A stretch of 64,000 nucleotides of DNA, taken from positions 8,957 through 72,956 of the forward strand of contig JAWOCD010000085.1 of the NCBI GenBank assembly GCA_046483985.1, given 5' to 3'. The notes beneath the pieces are model-generated. The model saw nothing but the letters and a program-made list of their open reading frames with translations. It was not told where the DNA came from and searched no databases. This document shows, one piece after another, positions 55,379 to 63,571 of this stretch. The position numbers and the translations under genes are program-made. Numbering within the stretch: the first letter of the stretch is position 1; every line of letters starts with the position of its first letter. This DNA is from Promethearchaeia archaeon. GTDB taxonomy: Archaea > Asgardarchaeota > Lokiarchaeia > Sigyniarchaeales > SOKP01.

Positions 55379-55456
55379 ACTTTAATTTTTTTAAGTTTAA
55401 CTCTCTTCTAATACTATCTATTTTATAAATTCGACTTATCTTATTTGATATCATCC

Positions 55457-56065
55457 ATGTCGCCTATGAAGTTATCAGAAAAAATGAAATTCTTTAACAT
55501 TGGCCGTTATAAAGAGGAACGGGATACGTTTTATGAATGGAAAAGCAAAAATTTTAATAAATCCATCTCCTTTATCGTGCACTCCACGCGGAGTGCTCCA
55601 GAAAGAGATATCTTTTATACCATAAACAAAAAAGATTATAAAGCCGTTTATTATATTCCAGAAGATATTGATGCGGTATTTACGATAGGTGCGGACCCAG
55701 ATATTCAATCCGTCATTTTAGAAGCACTCTTAGAATATCTCCATAATAAGTTTTTCGAAATGTATGAAGGTTCTCTCCTTACGGCATGTTATGGAGAAAG
55801 ATGCGATATTTTTAACGGGTTTACGGATGTGCTCCTTGACTCGTTTAGGAATTTTAGAGAATTAGATTTGGTAAAAGCGACCAGGGTTAATTGCAAGGCG
55901 TGTAAAAAGAACATGCAAGTGTATATAAAAAAATCCTTAATTGAGAATGCCTCACAATTTCCGGTTCCTATCGTCTTTGTTCATTCCGGACACGCGCTCT
56001 TAATATATATAGATAGGCAGTACAAGACTCGAGGAACGGGGCTGGTTTCTCTTTCTTATAAATAA
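55457..56065 (+). CDS. hypothetical protein, paralogue A (longin-like pattern plus conserved C-terminal beta-rich module)
   Basis: Aligns by eye with the next gene: AVFTIGADPDIQSVILEALLEYLHNKF versus LVFTLGAESSIQFQILEALLEYLKEKF. The ATG at 55457 is preferred; the ORF-track start at 55445 is TTG. Confidence 0.55.
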   Translation: MSPMKLSEKMKFFNIGRYKEERDTFYEWKSKNFNKSISFIVHSTRSAPERDIFYTINKKDYKAVYYIPEDIDAVFTIGADPDIQSVILEALLEYLHNKFFEMYEGSLLTACYGERCDIFNGFTDVLLDSFRNFRELDLVKATRVNCKACKKNMQVYIKKSLIENASQFPVPIVFVHSGHALLIYIDRQYKTRGTGLVSLSYK

Positions 56066-56174: not shown

Positions 56175-56774
56175 ATGGTTAGTTCCTTAATAGAGAATTT
56201 GAACTCAAAGGTATATTTTTTCCAAGTCACTAAAGGGGGAAACCAACTTTTTACCTGGAAATCTAGATTTATTAAGAAGGCATTTTTTAATACGGGATTC
56301 TTTAACAAGACTATTACGAATTATGATTTATTCCATCATCTAAATAAAGGAGATATTAAAATGGTCGGGATCAAGTCACGCCCTAATTTAGTTTTTACCT
56401 TGGGCGCAGAGAGTTCTATTCAATTTCAAATTTTAGAAGCATTATTAGAATACTTGAAGGAGAAGTTCACTAAAAAATATGCAGATATAATTTCTCTTGA
56501 ATTTGGGGCGAGTTCAGCGAAGCCCTTCGCTGAATTTGAAGAGGTGATTCTAAACTCACTGGAGGAATTCGAAGAATTAGACCTTATCAAAGTCATTGAT
56601 GTATACGTGGACTTTTTAAGAAAAAGACTAAAAATTGCAGTAAAGCGTTCTCTAATACAAGATGCCGAAGGAAATGTGCCCTTTGTGTTCTATTATAAAG
56701 GAATTTCTATTCTTCTTTATCTTGATCATGAATACCATGTGAGAGGATTAGAAAAGGTAAGTTTTTCCAATTAG
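56175..56774 (+). CDS. hypothetical protein, paralogue B of the 55457 gene
   Basis: Shared motifs ELDLIKV and VPFVFYYKGISILLYLDHEYHVRG, versus VPIVFVHSGHALLIYIDRQYKTRG in paralogue A. Confidence 0.55.
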   Translation: MVSSLIENLNSKVYFFQVTKGGNQLFTWKSRFIKKAFFNTGFFNKTITNYDLFHHLNKGDIKMVGIKSRPNLVFTLGAESSIQFQILEALLEYLKEKFTKKYADIISLEFGASSAKPFAEFEEVILNSLEEFEELDLIKVIDVYVDFLRKRLKIAVKRSLIQDAEGNVPFVFYYKGISILLYLDHEYHVRGLEKVSFSN

Positions 56775-56870: not shown

Positions 56871-57734
56871 ATGACAATTTATAATATTCAAGTCATTTCG
56901 AGCACGGGTTATCCTTACTTCAACAAAAATATTAAGGAAGAACCTGAAGACATTAAGTTATTTTTGAGATTTTTCGATTTTACGGAAAAAGCAGAAAGTT
57001 TTCCCCCCAGTTTAGATGATGATTCAAATTTTTCGTTATTGGCAGGACTTGTTTCTGCTTTATTTGAATTCGCAAAAAACATTAATAAAAACATCAATAC
57101 CTTGTCATTTAAGTCCTTACATCGTCCAAAGGGAAGACCAAAAATAGAGAAAAAATATCAAGGTGATTGTCTTATTACTACACAAACAGAAACCTATCTT
57201 CTCCATAAAAGTATACGCCAGAAAATAAATTACATTTACAAAGCAATCGTTTCTTCTAAGATTCCGTTTGAATCTGCTGACCCGCTTACGGAAAAAGAAC
57301 AAAAAACCATCGTCGATATATTAACAGATGAAAAAGCGAGAAATCATTTAAAACAAAATACCGGGAAAATAAAAGATATCGCCGAAAAATTATTGCGTGA
57401 ACGGGGAGATTATGGATTAGAATCGATTGCGATAACCTCATTTGATCTTACCCCCCTTCGGGTGTATGGAAGTAAGTATTCTTCTGAAGATATTGAAAAT
57501 ATTTTAAGGAATATTGGTGAAATTCCGCAAATTGATCCGTTCGAGTGGAAATATCGTCAATCCTTTTTGAACAATTCTCAAGTATGGATCTATCTTATTA
57601 ATTCAGGAATCGGAGTGACGGTTGAGGAAACTCTTTTTGAACCATATTTTTATTTGCTCTTCTGTGATCCCCAATCATACTTAGGAGAATTTCCCAATAA
57701 ATTAACACGAGATTTAAATTCAATTCTCGGATAA
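56871..57734 (+). CDS. hypothetical protein with longin/roadblock-like N-terminal pattern
   Basis: 287-aa ORF. MTIYNIQVISSTGYPYF...FSLLAGLVSALFEFAKNI resembles the start of longin-type domains. The C-terminal part (VWIYLINSGIGVTVEE...FYLLFCDPQSYLGEFPNKL) may be a second such domain. Confidence 0.5.
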   Translation: MTIYNIQVISSTGYPYFNKNIKEEPEDIKLFLRFFDFTEKAESFPPSLDDDSNFSLLAGLVSALFEFAKNINKNINTLSFKSLHRPKGRPKIEKKYQGDCLITTQTETYLLHKSIRQKINYIYKAIVSSKIPFESADPLTEKEQKTIVDILTDEKARNHLKQNTGKIKDIAEKLLRERGDYGLESIAITSFDLTPLRVYGSKYSSEDIENILRNIGEIPQIDPFEWKYRQSFLNNSQVWIYLINSGIGVTVEETLFEPYFYLLFCDPQSYLGEFPNKLTRDLNSILG

Positions 57735-60903: not shown

Positions 60904-61045
60904 ACTTTTATACAGTTCAATATTGTTTTTTGTTTCTTTTTCTTTTTAATAGAAAATATTTTCTATTGTATGTTAGATATTAAAAATTTTAAAATGAATG
61001 CTATTTTTACATTTATAATTTAACTACTCTTAGGTTTAAAGGAAA

Positions 61046-61552
61046 ATGTCAAATTACTCGAGAAAGGACTTACTTGACGCTGATGCTACAATGAATCAGC
61101 TTAGAAATATGGTGACCCACCTTCAGAGATTTATGAAAAAAAGCGGGGTTGAAAATATAATTGAACGCTATAGAAGGATGGGGAAACAGATGGCTGACAC
61201 CTATATTAACTATTGGAAGCCCATTGATAGCGTAAAACTTGCAAACATTCGAGATGTAATCGCTACGATTTATAAAAAAATTGTAGGCAGCCAGATTAAT
61301 ATTTCGATCAATGAAAAAGAGCATTTGATCACTGTAGTTGACTCAAATTGCTCTTTATGTAAATACCAATTTGATGATATAAACGTTGCTGGTTGCGAGA
61401 TCATCTTGGCTTTAGTCAGCGAGATGATTAACTTAATTAACAAAAATTCTCCCGATTCTTCAAGACTACGTTTAGAACCTTTCGCGGTAAAAGAATCACG
61501 AACATTTGGAGATGATTCCTGTGTTCAAATATATAAATATAAAATTGAATAA
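61046..61552 (+). CDS. V4R-domain (Bet3/TRAPP-like) protein
   Basis: 168 aa. C-terminal NCSLCKYQFDDINVAGCEIILALVSEMINL...VKESRTFGDDSCVQIY fits the V4R pattern (Cys pair, G/A-rich helix, E...GD..C). Confidence 0.55.
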   Translation: MSNYSRKDLLDADATMNQLRNMVTHLQRFMKKSGVENIIERYRRMGKQMADTYINYWKPIDSVKLANIRDVIATIYKKIVGSQINISINEKEHLITVVDSNCSLCKYQFDDINVAGCEIILALVSEMINLINKNSPDSSRLRLEPFAVKESRTFGDDSCVQIYKYKIE

Positions 61553-63013
61553 TTGAGATTAGGTGAATATAATTTGGGACTATTTCAATGGTTATTAAAA
61601 AAAGTGACGAAAGCATTTGGGAGAGATACGGACGCATTATTTTATACCTTACTATATAGAGAGATTCTCAAGGAAATTCAAGAAATCACTCAAGACGAAG
61701 AGAAATCATTAATTGTAATGCGGGAGTTGGGGAAAAATGCGGCTTATGATTCATGTGATAGGCATTCGAGTATTTTTCGGATCATGCCAGGAAAGCCGGA
61801 TAAAGTTTTAGACTACTTTGGTATCCTTTGGAGTGTTGTATTTGGGATGGATTTTGCAGAGCATAATTATGAACGCATCCCCAATGACGGACATGTCTAT
61901 GATGATTACGTGCTTAATATTCAGAAAAATCCGATTTGTGCGAGCTATAGTAATGATAAAGAAGACACATTTGATTTTAAGAGGGTCCCCGATGATCAAG
62001 ATGGATGTAGTGCGGGTTTATGCGGAATGCTGGAGACCGTTGCTAATTTTATCTTGAAAGTAAAGAAAGCAGAATACCGGATCGGTATGCAAGAAACCAA
62101 ATGCCTGGCAAAAGGCGATGACGTGTTGCAGCTTTATTGTAAAATTTATAATCTTGAGGAATGGAAGCAATACATCGAAAAAGAAGGACAAAAAGATATC
62201 TTCTCCGAGGATTTTCTTGAGCAAGGCGAACCAGATTTACTTGATAAAGTTCAAGATCTCTTTTCATTGGATAAAATGGAGCAAATTCTGGAAGAGCCCT
62301 TGGAGAATGTCAAAGATAAGGTGGCAGATCTTATCCGAGAGAAGTTAAATATGGGACCTAGGCACTTCTTTGATTATTTCAGAAACTACGAAGATGACAT
62401 GATTCGCATTGTTGGGTTTTTGTTTGTTCATTTACTGAATGAATACGGGGGATTTGTAGAAAAGTTTCTGAAGAACGATGTCCTGGCGCGATTAGCTGGA
62501 TATTTATTCAAGCATATGAAGGAAATGACTCTTCTATTTATTCCGTTAGATGTTGTCCACGATTACCATGAATTATTTGTTAGTTTTCTCAAAGGATTGG
62601 CTCCAGAAGAGATGATTCAAAGAATTGAGAGCTTTTCCGCACAAGAAGATATTAATCTATTATTTGAAGGCGCACAGATCGCCCTCGAAGATTTGGGAAT
62701 AGACTTTTCAGAATTGAAAGATAATATTTGGGAAGAATTGAAGGAGGACCGTGAAGATGAATTGATCTCTTCGGATCAATCTGTTATTGATAAATCCCGT
62801 GAAAGATTTCCGAAAATTGTTAATATTCTTCAAGAAATCGTGATGTTGATTAGTGAAATCTTAACGCTTCCCGTGCGAACTCTAATATCTGGAAGCCATC
62901 ATTCAGTTAAATCGGCGGTTAATTCTGTAGTATCCGAAGAGGAGGGATTATACGGACAAATTAGAGATCGAGCGGATAATATCTTTGACGAAGTGGAAGA
63001 ACTTCAGGATTAA
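61553..63013 (+). CDS. protein with N-terminal V4R-like domain and acidic helical C-terminal extension
   Basis: It starts (TTG) immediately after the upstream stop. NPICASY...DGCSAGLCGMLETVANFIL...MQETKCLAKGDDVLQLYCKIY fits the V4R pattern. The C-terminal ~280 aa are E/D-rich helices. Confidence 0.5.
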   Translation: MRLGEYNLGLFQWLLKKVTKAFGRDTDALFYTLLYREILKEIQEITQDEEKSLIVMRELGKNAAYDSCDRHSSIFRIMPGKPDKVLDYFGILWSVVFGMDFAEHNYERIPNDGHVYDDYVLNIQKNPICASYSNDKEDTFDFKRVPDDQDGCSAGLCGMLETVANFILKVKKAEYRIGMQETKCLAKGDDVLQLYCKIYNLEEWKQYIEKEGQKDIFSEDFLEQGEPDLLDKVQDLFSLDKMEQILEEPLENVKDKVADLIREKLNMGPRHFFDYFRNYEDDMIRIVGFLFVHLLNEYGGFVEKFLKNDVLARLAGYLFKHMKEMTLLFIPLDVVHDYHELFVSFLKGLAPEEMIQRIESFSAQEDINLLFEGAQIALEDLGIDFSELKDNIWEELKEDREDELISSDQSVIDKSRERFPKIVNILQEIVMLISEILTLPVRTLISGSHHSVKSAVNSVVSEEEGLYGQIRDRADNIFDEVEELQD

Positions 63014-63124
63014 GCTAAGAACTGATACTTAACAGGTACAATTAGTTTTTTGAAGTATGATATTTAAATATAAATATCCTTTTTTCTTAACAATTTCACT
63101 CAGCTCAGTTTTGTTTTTTTTATT

Positions 63125-63571
63125 TTACAAAGCTTTTCGCCAGATTACCATCTGCGCATCGTTAACTTTTGCTTTTCTTGGTCCCTTTTTCTCGTATTGA
63201 CATGTTTCAAATACATTCTCATAGTCCTCTCTTACTTGCGCCAAGATTTTCTCTAATTTTAATCCCCGAGCATACCATTCAATAAAATTAAGTATACTGG
63301 GACCGATTCTCTTAATTTCTGATTCTTTTTTTATGGCCATATATTCAATTCTTCCTTCAGTTTCATTTAGCTTTTTTAATCTTGCAGCACCTTCGATTTC
63401 TGAATCTATAAGACCCACAAAAAAATATAAATTATTTTTCTCTTCATCTATTATTTTCCGAACAGTATTTTTATCTTTTCCGTATGGCTTAAAGAGAATT
63501 TTCCATTGGAGGTCAAGCATTTCTTCATATTCATGCTCCTTGACTTGTCTAATAATTAGCGAGTTTTCCAT
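63125..63571 (-). CDS. probable GNAT-family N-acetyltransferase
   Basis: 148 aa. GAARLKKL...IEYMAIKKESEIKRIGPSILNFIEWYARGLKLEKI resembles GNAT motif A and its surroundings. Weak pattern-level call. Confidence 0.45.
   Translation of the reverse strand: MENSLIIRQVKEHEYEEMLDLQWKILFKPYGKDKNTVRKIIDEEKNNLYFFVGLIDSEIEGAARLKKLNETEGRIEYMAIKKESEIKRIGPSILNFIEWYARGLKLEKILAQVREDYENVFETCQYEKKGPRKAKVNDAQMVIWRKAL

What the first reader, a model, noticed from the sequence alone, without database searches (positions are those of the whole stretch)
61046..63013. Two abutting V4R (Bet3/TRAPP-ancestor-like) genes, the second with a long acidic extension
Both proteins carry the V4R hallmark: a Cys pair, then a small-residue helix, then E-x-x-C/R-x-x-x-G-D-D-x-C. 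The segments are NCSLCKY...AGCEIILALV...KESRTFGDDSCVQIY and PICASY...GCSAGLCGMLETV...QETKCLAKGDDVLQLYC. The V4R domain has been proposed in the literature as the prokaryotic ancestor of the Bet3-family subunits of the eukaryotic TRAPP tethering/GEF complex. The second ORF begins on the base after the first ORF's stop, which suggests co-translation and a heteromer, as seen for Bet3-family pairs.
Basis: partly seen in the sequence, partly recalled or inferred. Interest (0 to 1): 0.65.

Follow-up and report, generated by a model that had tools for sequence, protein, structure and literature searches.

The report
Paired TRAPPC3-like and V4R-like Asgard genes
An Asgard archaeon carries a tightly linked pair of genes for two very different versions of the protein fold that forms the core of the eukaryotic TRAPP vesicle-tethering complex; the pairing is conserved across Asgard lineages and had not been noticed, which suggests these proteins work as a two-part complex.

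Summary
Both ORFs are real, strongly conserved genes of a Promethearchaeia (Loki-type Asgard) genome. Neither passes Pfam thresholds. A family profile of gene 1 (168 aa) hits the crystallised Thorarchaeota TRAPPC3 (E 3e-6). AlphaFold models of gene 1 and of the N-terminal ~195 residues of gene 2 match eukaryotic and Thor TRAPPC3/Bet3 best, and gene 2 also matches MopR/PoxR V4R domains. Gene 2 really starts at TTG 61574, behind its own Shine-Dalgarno site, not at 61553. In 71 of 80 related loci the two genes are only -1 to +2 nt apart.

The small gene lies directly upstream of the large one in 80/80 loci and in 7/7 divergent loci. The crystallised Thor-TRAPPC3 gene is likewise followed by a true Pfam V4R gene related to gene 2.

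The "acidic extension" is a conserved ~250-residue helical domain with no known relatives. It also occurs fused to a HAD phosphatase beside a split version of the pair.

Most likely the two proteins form a zinc-stabilised Bet3-like heterodimer, carried by gene 2's extra parts to a membrane or partner; this is inferred, not shown. No GTPase or longin gene is in the operon, so TRAPP-like function is untested.

The parts
61012..61017 (+). TATA-like box (TTTATA) about 30 nt upstream of the gene 1 start codon, in a 142-nt AT-rich intergenic region
   Evidence: Read directly from the sequence. No archaeal promoter tool was available, so this is only suggestive.
61046..61552 (+). Gene 1 (P1, 168 aa): small TRAPPC3/Bet3-like protein of the four-cysteine type
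   Evidence: ORF found. Identical to NCBI R6U96_13055, with 117 homologues. Profile hit to Thor-TRAPPC3 7yh2 at E 3e-6. AF2 model has pLDDT 89 and pTM 0.86. Foldseek top hits are TRAPPC3 6aq3 at 2e-7 and 7yh3 at 4e-7. Pfam TRAPP hits 17/42 members below threshold.
61349..61522 (+). Span holding the four invariant cysteine codons of P1 (C102, C105, C117, C159), the presumed zinc site
   Evidence: Invariant in 42 sequences. They align with the CxxC...C...C of Thor-TRAPPC3, whose four Cys bind Zn in the crystal (PMC10933270).
61561..61566 (+). Shine-Dalgarno-like AGGTGA, 7 nt upstream of the gene 2 start
   Evidence: Sequence. An SD-like motif is present upstream of gene 2 in 75/80 related loci.
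61574..63013 (+). Gene 2 (P2, 479 aa, TTG start): V4R/TRAPPC3-like domain plus a conserved C-terminal domain
   Evidence: The NCBI annotation is 479 aa. The MGxFQW N-terminus is conserved in 34/34 sequences. Only 68 representatives at E <= 0.001 among 1.84 billion representative proteins.
61577..61621 (+). N-terminal cationic amphipathic helix (residues 2-16, GLFQWLLKKVTKAFG)
   Evidence: G2, W6, K9 and F15 are invariant. AF2 predicts a helix at 2-15, at low pLDDT. Hydrophobic moment is 0.45-0.65 and net charge +1 to +4 in most family members.
61631..62158 (+). Bet3/V4R-fold domain of P2 (residues ~20-195), carrying E174-x-x-C177 and further Cys
   Evidence: Model topology and pLDDT of 60-85. 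Foldseek gives TRAPPC3 7b6d_A at 3e-5, target TM-score up to 0.80, then MopR/PoxR. With profile A5, 5 of 6 PDB hits are TRAPPC3. hhalign to the Thor V4R gene gives 83% and to Thor-TRAPPC3 82%.
62159..62278 (+). Variable acidic linker (residues 196-235)
   Evidence: Length-variable and gapped in the alignment. Net charge -7. pLDDT below 40.
62279..62728 (+). Core of the conserved helical C-domain (residues 236-385; motifs F-x-N-Y-E-D-D, H-L-L-N-E-Y-G, L-A-P, E-G-A-x-x-A-L-x-x-L-G)
   Evidence: Conservation shown. The same domain is fused to HAD_2 phosphatases. No significant known relative: ARL2BP/BART only at E 0.019, with the reciprocal tests negative.
62807..62908 (+). Hydrophobic helix-Pro-helix segment (residues 412-445, FPKIVNILQEIVMLISEILTLPVRTLISGSHHSV)
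   Evidence: It is the most hydrophobic 19-residue window in 25 of the 28 members compared whose C-domain includes this segment (Kyte-Doolittle 1.2-2.15), with a central Pro in most.
63046..63051 (+). First oligo-T run after the gene 2 stop codon, a possible archaeal terminator; further runs at 63080-63085 and 63114-63121
   Evidence: Read directly from the sequence. A convergent GNAT gene follows at 63125-63571 on the minus strand.

Best explanation
The two genes form a bicistronic operon for two deeply diverged members of the Bet3/TRAPPC3-V4R fold superfamily. P1 (168 aa) is the TRAPPC3-type subunit, and four cysteines hold a structural zinc. P2 begins with a cationic amphipathic helix. It continues with a V4R-type domain that keeps the E-x-x-C hairpin motif of the PoxR/MopR/XylR zinc site. 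It ends in a conserved, acidic, all-helical domain of about 250 residues that contains a hydrophobic helix-Pro-helix.

The most likely mechanism is as follows. The two proteins are made together and assemble through their N-terminal helices into a heterodimer, as Bet3 does with Trs31 or Trs33 and as Thor-TRAPPC3 does with itself. P2's N-terminal helix and C-domain then place this dimer on a membrane or on a partner protein. There its Bet3-like body acts as a scaffold or as a binder of a hydrophobic ligand.

Shown here: the fold of both proteins, the conserved Cys and Glu motifs, the operon structure, and the conservation of the pair across Asgard lineages. Inferred: zinc binding, heterodimer formation, membrane or partner targeting, and any role in trafficking.
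For: Fold:
- The P1 model (pLDDT 89) and the P2 N-domain model (pLDDT 60-85) both have the a3-b2-a1-b2 order.
- Both match TRAPPC3/Bet3 chains best.

Sequence:
- The P1 profile reaches Thor-TRAPPC3 at E 3e-6.
- For the P2 N-domain profile, 5 of 6 PDB hits are TRAPPC3.
- hhalign gives 82-83% to Thor-TRAPPC3 and to the Thor V4R gene.

Metal site:
- The four invariant Cys of P1 align with the four Cys of Thor-TRAPPC3, which bind zinc in its crystal (PMC10933270).
- P2 has C150 on helix a4, then E174-x2-C177 and C189. This parallels C149/E172/C175/C183 of XylR-type V4R domains (bioRxiv 10.1101/2021.01.17.427014).
- Cys positions swap in a coordinated way: C119+C147 in 91 sequences, C145 in the other 29, of 120 in total.

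Coupling of the two genes:
- P1 lies directly upstream of P2 in 80/80 genome loci.
- The stop-to-start spacing is -1 to +2 nt in 71/80 loci, with SD-like motifs in 75/80.
- The pair persists in 3 divergent full-length loci and 4 loci with an N-domain-only P2, where the neighbourhoods are otherwise unrelated.
- In 6/6 Thorarchaeota loci, Thor-TRAPPC3 (Pfam TRAPP 4e-10) is followed by a Pfam V4R gene (5e-11).

C-domain as a separable module:
- It is fused to HAD phosphatases instead of to P2 in some genomes. In L085/L086 that gene sits 636 nt upstream of a split P1 plus P2-N pair.

Targeting elements:
- The N-terminal helix is conserved, cationic and amphipathic.
- The C-terminal segment is hydrophobic and Pro-kinked.
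- In P1 the densest cluster of invariant polar residues lies on helix a1: N17, Q18, R20, N21. In P2, a1 carries Y28, R29, E30. These are the helices that form Bet3-family dimer interfaces (PMC10933270).
Against: - No direct test of heterodimer formation was possible.
- Thor-TRAPPC3 crystallises as a homodimer (PMC10933270), so homodimers are feasible.
- Profile-profile comparison of P1 with P2 finds no significant relationship. Only structure shows their common fold.
- The window proteins miss the Pfam TRAPP and V4R thresholds.
- The C-domain model is of low confidence (pLDDT 35-70).
- The hydrophobic segment contains charged residues and may simply be a buried core helix.
- The N-terminal helix is only moderately amphipathic (mean z 1.35 against shuffles).
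- The mirror-tree co-evolution signal did not separate P1-P2 from control gene pairs.
- GFP fusions of Asgard TRAPPC3 proteins did not go to membranes in HeLa cells (PMC10933270).
Confidence: 0.6

Rival explanations
1. The two genes encode independent small-molecule-binding V4R proteins. Each is a homodimer that binds or senses a hydrophobic ligand, as PoxR/MopR bind phenols and Bet3 binds palmitate. They would be co-transcribed only because they serve the same metabolic or lipid-related process, with no heteromer and no link to trafficking.
For: - V4R and Bet3 cavities bind hydrophobic ligands, and Tran et al. propose ligand binding for Asgard TRAPPC3/V4R proteins (PMC10933270).
- Thor-TRAPPC3 is a homodimer in crystals.
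- The P2 C-domain is shared with HAD phosphatases. In L087/L088 these sit beside PlsC-type acyltransferases, which hints at lipid metabolism.
- The P2 N-domain also matches MopR/PoxR sensor domains.
Against: - The strict order and near-zero spacing of two very different paralogues is kept in 87/87 loci across lineages whose other neighbours differ. The same holds in Thorarchaeota. This is stronger linkage than is usual for merely co-regulated genes.
- Invariant polar residues cluster on the helices that form dimer interfaces in this fold.
- No ligand-pathway enzymes are conserved in the neighbourhood.
Confidence: 0.2
2. The pair is the core of a true proto-TRAPP. On this reading, a membrane-bound Bet3-like heterodimer recruits roadblock/longin-type proteins and acts as an exchange factor or tether for Asgard Rab/Arf/Rag-like GTPases.
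For: - Both proteins match TRAPPC3 better than any other solved structure.
- A Roadblock/LC7 gene (Pfam 8e-15) lies about 3 kb downstream in 50/80 loci.
- In Thor loci each TRAPP-like gene is preceded by a ~330-aa gene with a weak Robl_LC7-like N-terminus (E 0.21).
- One divergent locus has an Arf/RagA-like GTPase 2.2 kb downstream.
- P2 has candidate membrane-binding elements.
Against: - No longin, roadblock or GTPase gene is inside the operon, and none occurs in this window's neighbourhood.
- The roadblock linkage is seen only among closely related genomes and may reflect plain synteny.
- The roadblock-like assignment of the Thor upstream gene is not significant.
- In eukaryotic TRAPP the GTPase is contacted mainly by the longin subunits, not by Bet3-family subunits (PMC10933270 introduction).
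- The weak similarity of the C-domain to the Arl2-binding BART domain failed reciprocal tests.
Confidence: 0.12
3. The C-terminal domain of P2 is a distant BART (ARL2BP-like) domain. P2 would then be an effector or adaptor of an Arf-like GTPase.
For: ARL2BP is the best PDB sequence hit of the C-domain profile. It improves with a more diverse profile, from E 0.11 to 0.019. The same ~65-105 residues align co-linearly around an N-E-Y...E-K motif.
Against: - The Pfam ARL2_Bind_BART model finds nothing in three C-domain consensus sequences, even at E 10.
- hhalign of the C-domain alignment against a vertebrate BART alignment gives 5% probability.
- No member hit the family in per-sequence Pfam scans.
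- The C-domain model is too poor for a fold test.
Confidence: 0.05

Closest known systems
Thorarchaeota TRAPPC3 (PDB 7YH2, 7YH3; Tran et al. 2024, PMC10933270)
   Same: It shares P1's fold and size, and its zinc-binding four-cysteine pattern CxxC...C...C aligns with P1's four Cys. Its gene is also the first of a pair, followed by a V4R-type gene related to P2.
   Different: It is only ~15-18% identical to P1. It was described as a homodimer, with no partner gene mentioned. Its partner (182-190 aa) lacks the C-terminal domain of P2. The Thor pair is preceded by a ~330-aa gene that is absent here.
Eukaryotic Bet3-family heterodimers of the TRAPP core (TRAPPC3 with TRAPPC6/Trs33 or TRAPPC5/Trs31)
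   Same: They have the same alpha/beta-plait fold and are the best structural matches for both proteins. In both cases two diverged paralogues are thought to pair through their N-terminal helices.
   Different: Eukaryotic subunits have no zinc site; it is replaced by a hydrogen bond (PMC10933270). They work with longin-type subunits as a Rab exchange factor. Bet3 carries a palmitate in a channel. None has the N-terminal amphipathic helix or the C-domain of P2. Whether the Asgard pairing is ancestral to the eukaryotic one or independent is unknown.
V4R sensory domains of PoxR, MopR, DmpR and XylR (Pfam PF02830)
   Same: The P2 N-domain matches them structurally (E 4e-4 to 5e-3). It keeps the zinc motif of a helix Cys plus E-x-x-C plus a further Cys.
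   Different: Those domains are phenol or toluene sensors fused to sigma-54 activator ATPase and DNA-binding domains in bacteria. P2 has neither. TRAPPC3 chains score better than they do, and Pfam V4R does not reach threshold on P2.
MKD1-TRAPPC3 (WP_147663132.1) and 'MKD1 PoxR' (WP_147661794.1), modelled by Tran et al. 2024
   Same: They are one TRAPPC3-like and one PoxR/V4R-like protein in a cultured Lokiarchaeon, told apart by topology and zinc site. That is the same contrast as between P1 and the P2 N-domain.
   Different: I could not obtain their sequences, so orthology to P1 and P2 is unverified. The paper does not mention adjacency, a C-terminal domain or heteromer formation, and it predicts homodimers.

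Membership tests
Bet3/TRAPPC3 family (Pfam TRAPP PF04051) | Alpha/beta-plait fold with four helices and a four-stranded sheet in the order a1-a2-a3-b1-b2-a4-b3-b4 | tested here: met
   DSSP on the AF2 models: P1 has H6-33, H38-54, H65-80, E84-89, E94-99, H117-133, E141-150, E159-167. The P2 N-domain has the same order of elements.
Bet3/TRAPPC3 family (Pfam TRAPP PF04051) | Structural similarity to solved TRAPPC3/Bet3 chains | tested here: met
   P1: 6aq3_E at E 2e-7, 7yh3 at 4e-7, TM-scores 0.65-0.74. P2 N-domain: 7b6d_A at 3e-5, target TM-score up to 0.80.
Bet3/TRAPPC3 family (Pfam TRAPP PF04051) | Score above the Pfam gathering threshold for the TRAPP model | tested here: not met
   No TRAPP hit on either window protein at E <= 1. 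17 of 42 P1 homologues hit it below threshold, best E 8e-4.
Bet3/TRAPPC3 family (Pfam TRAPP PF04051) | Detectable sequence relationship to an accepted family member | tested here: met
   The P1 profile reaches Thor-TRAPPC3 at E 3e-6. For the P2 N-domain profile, 5 of 6 PDB hits are TRAPPC3, best E 0.022, and hhalign gives 82% at E 1e-5.
Bet3/TRAPPC3 family (Pfam TRAPP PF04051) | Dimerisation through the two N-terminal helices | not testable with these tools
   No multimer prediction was available. Indirect support only: the conserved operon and invariant polar residues on a1.
Bet3/TRAPPC3 family (Pfam TRAPP PF04051) | Assembly with longin-type subunits into a complex with Rab exchange or tethering activity | not testable with these tools
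   No longin, roadblock or GTPase gene lies in the operon or in this window's neighbourhood. Roadblock genes occur nearby in related loci.
V4R domain (Pfam PF02830) | Score above the Pfam gathering threshold for the V4R model | tested here: not met
   No hit on the window proteins. One of 34 P2 homologues hits at E 0.046. The related Thor second gene does pass, at 5e-11 and 43 bits against a cut-off of 31.
V4R domain (Pfam PF02830) | Zinc site made of a helix Cys plus E-x-x-C plus a further Cys on the C-terminal hairpin (C149/E172/C175/C183 in XylR numbering) | tested here: inconclusive
   P2 has C150 on helix a4, then E174, C177 and C189. E174 and C177 are kept in all Cys-bearing members (ligand pattern). 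Actual metal binding and the exact ligand set could not be tested. P1 has R in place of the E-x-x-C cysteine and uses the four-Cys type.
V4R domain (Pfam PF02830) | Structural similarity to solved V4R domains (MopR, PoxR, DmpR) | tested here: met
   The P2 N-domain matches 7vqf and 5kbe (MopR) at E 4e-4 and 5frz (PoxR) at 2e-3, ranked below TRAPPC3. For P1 these are not among the top 50 hits.
BART domain (ARL2BP, Pfam PF11527), considered for the C-domain | Reciprocal profile similarity to BART-domain proteins | tested here: not met
   In the forward direction the profile reaches only E 0.019-0.12. The Pfam BART model finds nothing in the C-domain consensus sequences. hhalign gives 5%.

The most novel reading that the evidence does not exclude
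Asgard archaea carry an ancient two-gene module: a TRAPPC3-type subunit followed by a V4R-type subunit. Its products would form an obligate heterodimer, the prokaryotic forerunner of the Bet3-Trs31 and Bet3-Trs33 heterodimers of eukaryotic TRAPP. In the Loki-type lineage the V4R subunit has gained a membrane- or partner-targeting module. This consists of an amphipathic N-helix and a new helical C-domain that is also used by a HAD phosphatase. The dimer would then act as a membrane-bound platform for roadblock/longin proteins and small GTPases. On this reading, the published Thor-TRAPPC3 homodimer is not the physiological assembly.
Probability: 0.15. Interest if true: 0.85.

Novelty: new variant of a known kind. 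Interest (0 to 1): 0.58.

Why it matters
TRAPPC3/V4R-like proteins are already on the list of Asgard 'eukaryotic signature proteins'. So far they have been treated as single genes that form homodimers of unknown role.

A strictly conserved operon of two very different paralogues changes that picture. It includes the gene next to the crystallised Thor-TRAPPC3. It suggests that the move from homodimer to heterodimer, a defining trait of the eukaryotic TRAPP core, may already have happened in archaea. It also names the exact protein pairs to co-express.

The new C-terminal domain appears either fused to the V4R subunit or on a neighbouring HAD phosphatase. That gives a concrete handle on where these proteins act in the cell. 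If the function turns out to be ligand binding rather than trafficking, that would also matter, because it would caution against reading TRAPP-like genes as evidence of vesicle transport in Asgard archaea.

Tried and rejected
- **Pfam and NCBIfam on the window proteins.** No meaningful hits. The frequent SecA_SW hits on P1 homologues (29/42) and COG5_C hits on P2 homologues (6/34) lie in long helices, and I treated them as noise.
- **hhalign of the P1 family against the P2 family.** No significant relation: 0.2% with the shallow P2 alignment, 16% with the diverse N-domain alignment.
- **BART/ARL2BP hypothesis for the C-domain.** Rejected as unsupported after the Pfam consensus scan and hhalign against 22 vertebrate BART sequences.
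- **Mirror-tree co-evolution.** The P1-P2 partial correlation (0.43-0.50) was no higher than P2 against an unrelated neighbour (0.63), so the test is uninformative.
- **Conserved neighbour family of window ORF 56871-57734.** No Pfam or PDB relative found.
- **Thor ~330-aa upstream gene as a Roadblock protein.** Only E 0.21, so not established.
- **Defence-system models (PADLOC).** No hits.
- **MK-D1 proteins of Tran et al.** I could not retrieve them to test orthology.
- **Neighbourhood of this window.** It holds LeuRS, a glycosyltransferase, radical SAM enzymes, lipoate ligase, TIM, a flavin reductase, a ferredoxin-like protein, thioredoxin and a GNAT. This gives no functional clue.
Full report
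**What is in the sequence**

The window has 35% G+C. Its exact protein matches place it in a Promethearchaeia (Loki-type Asgard) metagenome-assembled genome, with locus tags R6U96_13055 and R6U96_13060.

The second gene (P2) does not really start on the base after the first stop. Three observations place its start at TTG 61574, 21 nt after the TAA:
- The family N-terminus M-G-x-F-Q-W is conserved in all 34 aligned homologues.
- The public annotation is 479 aa.
- AGGTGA sits at 61561-61566, 7 nt upstream of that TTG.

A TATA-like TTTATA lies about 30 nt upstream of P1, and oligo-T runs follow P2. This layout fits a two-gene transcript, but I could not test it.

**Identity of the two proteins**

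Pfam and NCBIfam find nothing significant in either window protein. Family-level evidence is clear.

For P1:
- A 42-sequence profile hits only two proteins in the whole PDB with significance. Both are the crystallised Thorarchaeota TRAPPC3 (7yh2 at E 3e-6, 7yh3 at 2e-5).
- The AlphaFold model is confident (pLDDT 89, pTM 0.86) and has the order a1-a2-a3-b1-b2-a4-b3-b4.
- The best Foldseek matches are Naegleria TRAPPC3, Thor-TRAPPC3, and mouse, fly and yeast Bet3, with TM-scores of 0.6-0.74.
- Pfam TRAPP hits 17 of 42 homologues below threshold.
- Four cysteines (C102, C105, C117, C159) are invariant. They align with the four Cys of Thor-TRAPPC3, which bind zinc in its crystal (PMC10933270).

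For P2:
- The model is good only for residues ~20-205. That part has the same topology.
- It again matches TRAPPC3/Bet3 best (7b6d_A at 3e-5; target TM-score up to 0.80). MopR, PoxR and DmpR V4R sensor domains follow.
- A diverse N-domain profile (A5) gives six PDB hits at E < 10. Five of them are TRAPPC3 proteins.
- P2 keeps E174-x-x-C177 and C189 after a helix cysteine (C150). This parallels the C149/E172/C175/C183 zinc site reported for XylR, PoxR, MopR and DmpR.
- The cysteines shift in a coordinated way across 120 homologues: C119 plus C147 in 91 sequences, C145 in the other 29.
- One divergent subclade has lost all of them, as eukaryotic Bet3 has.

P1 and P2 are not detectably related to each other by profile comparison. 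Only structure shows their common fold.

**The pair is the conserved unit**

- In 80 of 80 genome loci recovered with the P2 profile, a P1 homologue lies immediately upstream on the same strand.
- The stop-to-start distance is -1 to +2 nt in 71 of the 80 loci, and SD-like motifs precede P2 in 75.
- The P2 family is small. Only 68 representatives reach E <= 0.001 among 1.84 billion representative proteins.
- I checked three divergent full-length members, in neighbourhoods unrelated to this one. Each has a P1 homologue directly upstream (HMM E 1e-35 to 1e-46).
- Four lineages in which P2 consists of the N-domain alone (~190 aa) show the same arrangement.

I then reconstructed most of the Thor-TRAPPC3 sequence from the tool alignments and searched metagenome contigs with it. 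In 6 of 6 Thorarchaeota loci with enough flank, the Thor-TRAPPC3 gene (Pfam TRAPP 4e-10) is followed after about 50-70 nt by a 182-190-aa gene that passes Pfam V4R (5e-11). That second gene is related to the P2 N-domain (hmmsearch 2e-5; hhalign 83%, E 9e-6 over 152 columns).

P1 relates to Thor-TRAPPC3 (hhalign 39%, E 3e-4) but not to the Thor V4R gene (1%).

The order 'TRAPPC3-type with four Cys, then V4R-type with E-x-x-C' is therefore shared by the Loki-type and Thor lineages. The published paper describes Thor-TRAPPC3 as a homodimer and does not mention a partner gene.

**The extension of P2**

Residues 196-479 are acidic (net charge -33) but highly conserved, apart from two short linkers. 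AlphaFold predicts helices throughout, at low confidence.

The same domain occurs at the C-terminus of HAD_2 phosphatases. In L085/L086 such a HAD-C-domain gene lies 636 nt upstream of a split pair, a 152-aa P1 and a 194-aa P2 N-domain. This links the domain to the pair whether or not it is fused. In L087/L088 the HAD-C-domain gene sits next to a PlsC-type acyltransferase.

The only outside similarity is a weak, co-linear match to the Arl2-binding BART domain (E 0.11, improving to 0.019). It failed two reciprocal tests, so I do not accept it.

Two further conserved features are worth noting:
- The N-terminal segment G-x-F-x-W-L-x-K-K-x-x-K-x-F-G is cationic and amphipathic.
- A hydrophobic helix-Pro-helix near the C-terminus is the most hydrophobic stretch in 25 of the 28 members compared whose C-domain includes it.

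**How it most likely works**

The evidence shows two zinc-type Bet3-fold proteins, made from one tightly coupled operon, whose pairing has outlived all other gene-order conservation. From this, and from the known behaviour of the fold, I infer a P1-P2 heterodimer. Bet3-family proteins dimerise through a1/a2. P1 and P2 both carry their most conserved polar residues on a1.

More tentatively, I infer that P2's N-helix and C-domain bring the dimer to a membrane or partner. What the complex does there is open: it could be a scaffold, a hydrophobic-ligand binder, or a platform for GTPase regulators.

A true TRAPP-like role is not supported by the operon content. No longin, roadblock or GTPase gene is inside the operon, and this window's neighbours are housekeeping genes. 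Some hints exist but are not evidence:
- A Roadblock/LC7 gene lies ~3 kb downstream in 50/80 related loci.
- A possibly roadblock-like gene lies upstream of each Thor TRAPP-like gene (E 0.21).
- One Arf/RagA-like GTPase lies nearby in L083.

**Comparison with what is known, and novelty**

Asgard TRAPPC3/V4R proteins are known (PMC10933270; Podar et al. 2008, PMC2253512). Tran et al. modelled one TRAPPC3-like and one PoxR-like protein in the cultured Lokiarchaeon MK-D1. These may well be the orthologues of P1 and P2, but I could not check this.

I found no description of the following in the searchable literature:
- the conserved two-gene arrangement, including next to the crystallised Thor protein
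- the C-terminal domain and its HAD fusion
- the N-terminal helix

I therefore rate the finding a new variant of a known kind. Its interest is moderate to high for people working on the origin of eukaryotic trafficking, mainly because it makes heteromer formation directly testable.

**Limits**

- Heteromer formation, zinc binding, membrane binding and function are all untested here.
- The organism labels of many loci come from the submitters and may be imprecise. One locus, L057, is labelled as a Nanopelagicaceae bacterium.
- The C-domain fold is unknown.

Noticed in passing
L092 113-2242 and 2949-5078 (Thorarchaeota contig Ga0209536_100007179); the same layout occurs in L095, L097 and L098: The Thor locus looks like a tandem duplication. 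A ~330-aa gene is followed by a TRAPP-like gene, twice. The two ~330-aa genes are 37% identical to each other and carry an acidic/Pro-rich linker and a weak wHTH (HTH_47) hit. Only the second copy, Thor-TRAPPC3, has the V4R partner. The first TRAPP-like gene (167 aa, Pfam TRAPP 2e-5) is followed by a membrane protein. The N-terminus of the ~330-aa genes gives a weak hit to a Robl_LC7 structure (7f8m, E 0.21).
   Followed up: partly
L085 6001-9267 and L086 218-3484; L087 1-3357; L088 3164-7470: The P2 C-domain also occurs fused to HAD_2 phosphatases. In L085/L086 this gene lies just upstream of a split P1 plus P2-N-domain pair. In L087/L088 it sits beside PlsC-type acyltransferase genes and HGD-D/BcrAD-type genes.
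   Followed up: partly
L034 9020-9391 (- strand), and the equivalent position in 50 of 80 related loci; this lies beyond the end of the window: A 123-aa Roadblock/LC7 gene (Pfam 8e-15) is conserved about 3 kb downstream of P2. Between the two lies a conserved 478-aa helical protein of unknown family (45 loci).
   Followed up: partly
window 56871-57734 (+): A 287-aa protein of unknown family is conserved ~3.7 kb upstream of P2 in 57 of 80 loci. It has no Pfam or PDB relative. Its pairwise distances track those of P2 closely (r 0.91).
   Followed up: partly
window 61928-62023 (P2 residues 119-150), and 120 homologues: Cysteines swap in a coordinated way around the presumed metal site. Sequences have either C119 and C147 with a hydrophobic residue at 145 (91 sequences), or no Cys at 119 or 147 and C145 instead (29 sequences, including this window). 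A divergent subclade has lost all site cysteines.
   Followed up: partly
L084 2719-4843: Two paralogous ~340-aa genes lie directly upstream of a divergent P1-P2 pair. Each has a short folded-looking N-terminus followed by a long Pro/Ser-rich low-complexity region. Homologues occur near the pair in L082 and L001. No Pfam hit is on record for them, and their fold was not tested.
   Followed up: no
L083 11682-12593: A 303-aa Arf/Gtr1-RagA-type small GTPase lies 2.2 kb downstream of a divergent P1-P2 pair. This was seen in one locus only.
   Followed up: no
L057 (DATKTW010000073.1): A contig labelled 'Candidatus Nanopelagicaceae bacterium' carries the full Asgard-type P1-P2 pair at 57% identity. 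It is probably a mis-binned or mislabelled Asgard contig.
   Followed up: no
window 55445-56065 and 56175-56774 (+): Two ORFs of about 200 aa lie between the leucyl-tRNA synthetase gene and ORF 56871. Neither has a Pfam hit.
   Followed up: no
L085 1777-2955, 9376-9627, 12943-13578: The neighbourhood of the split pair is rich in eukaryote-like genes. The precomputed annotations list a gelsolin-like protein (faint), a ubiquitin-like protein (weak) and ARPP-1.
   Followed up: no
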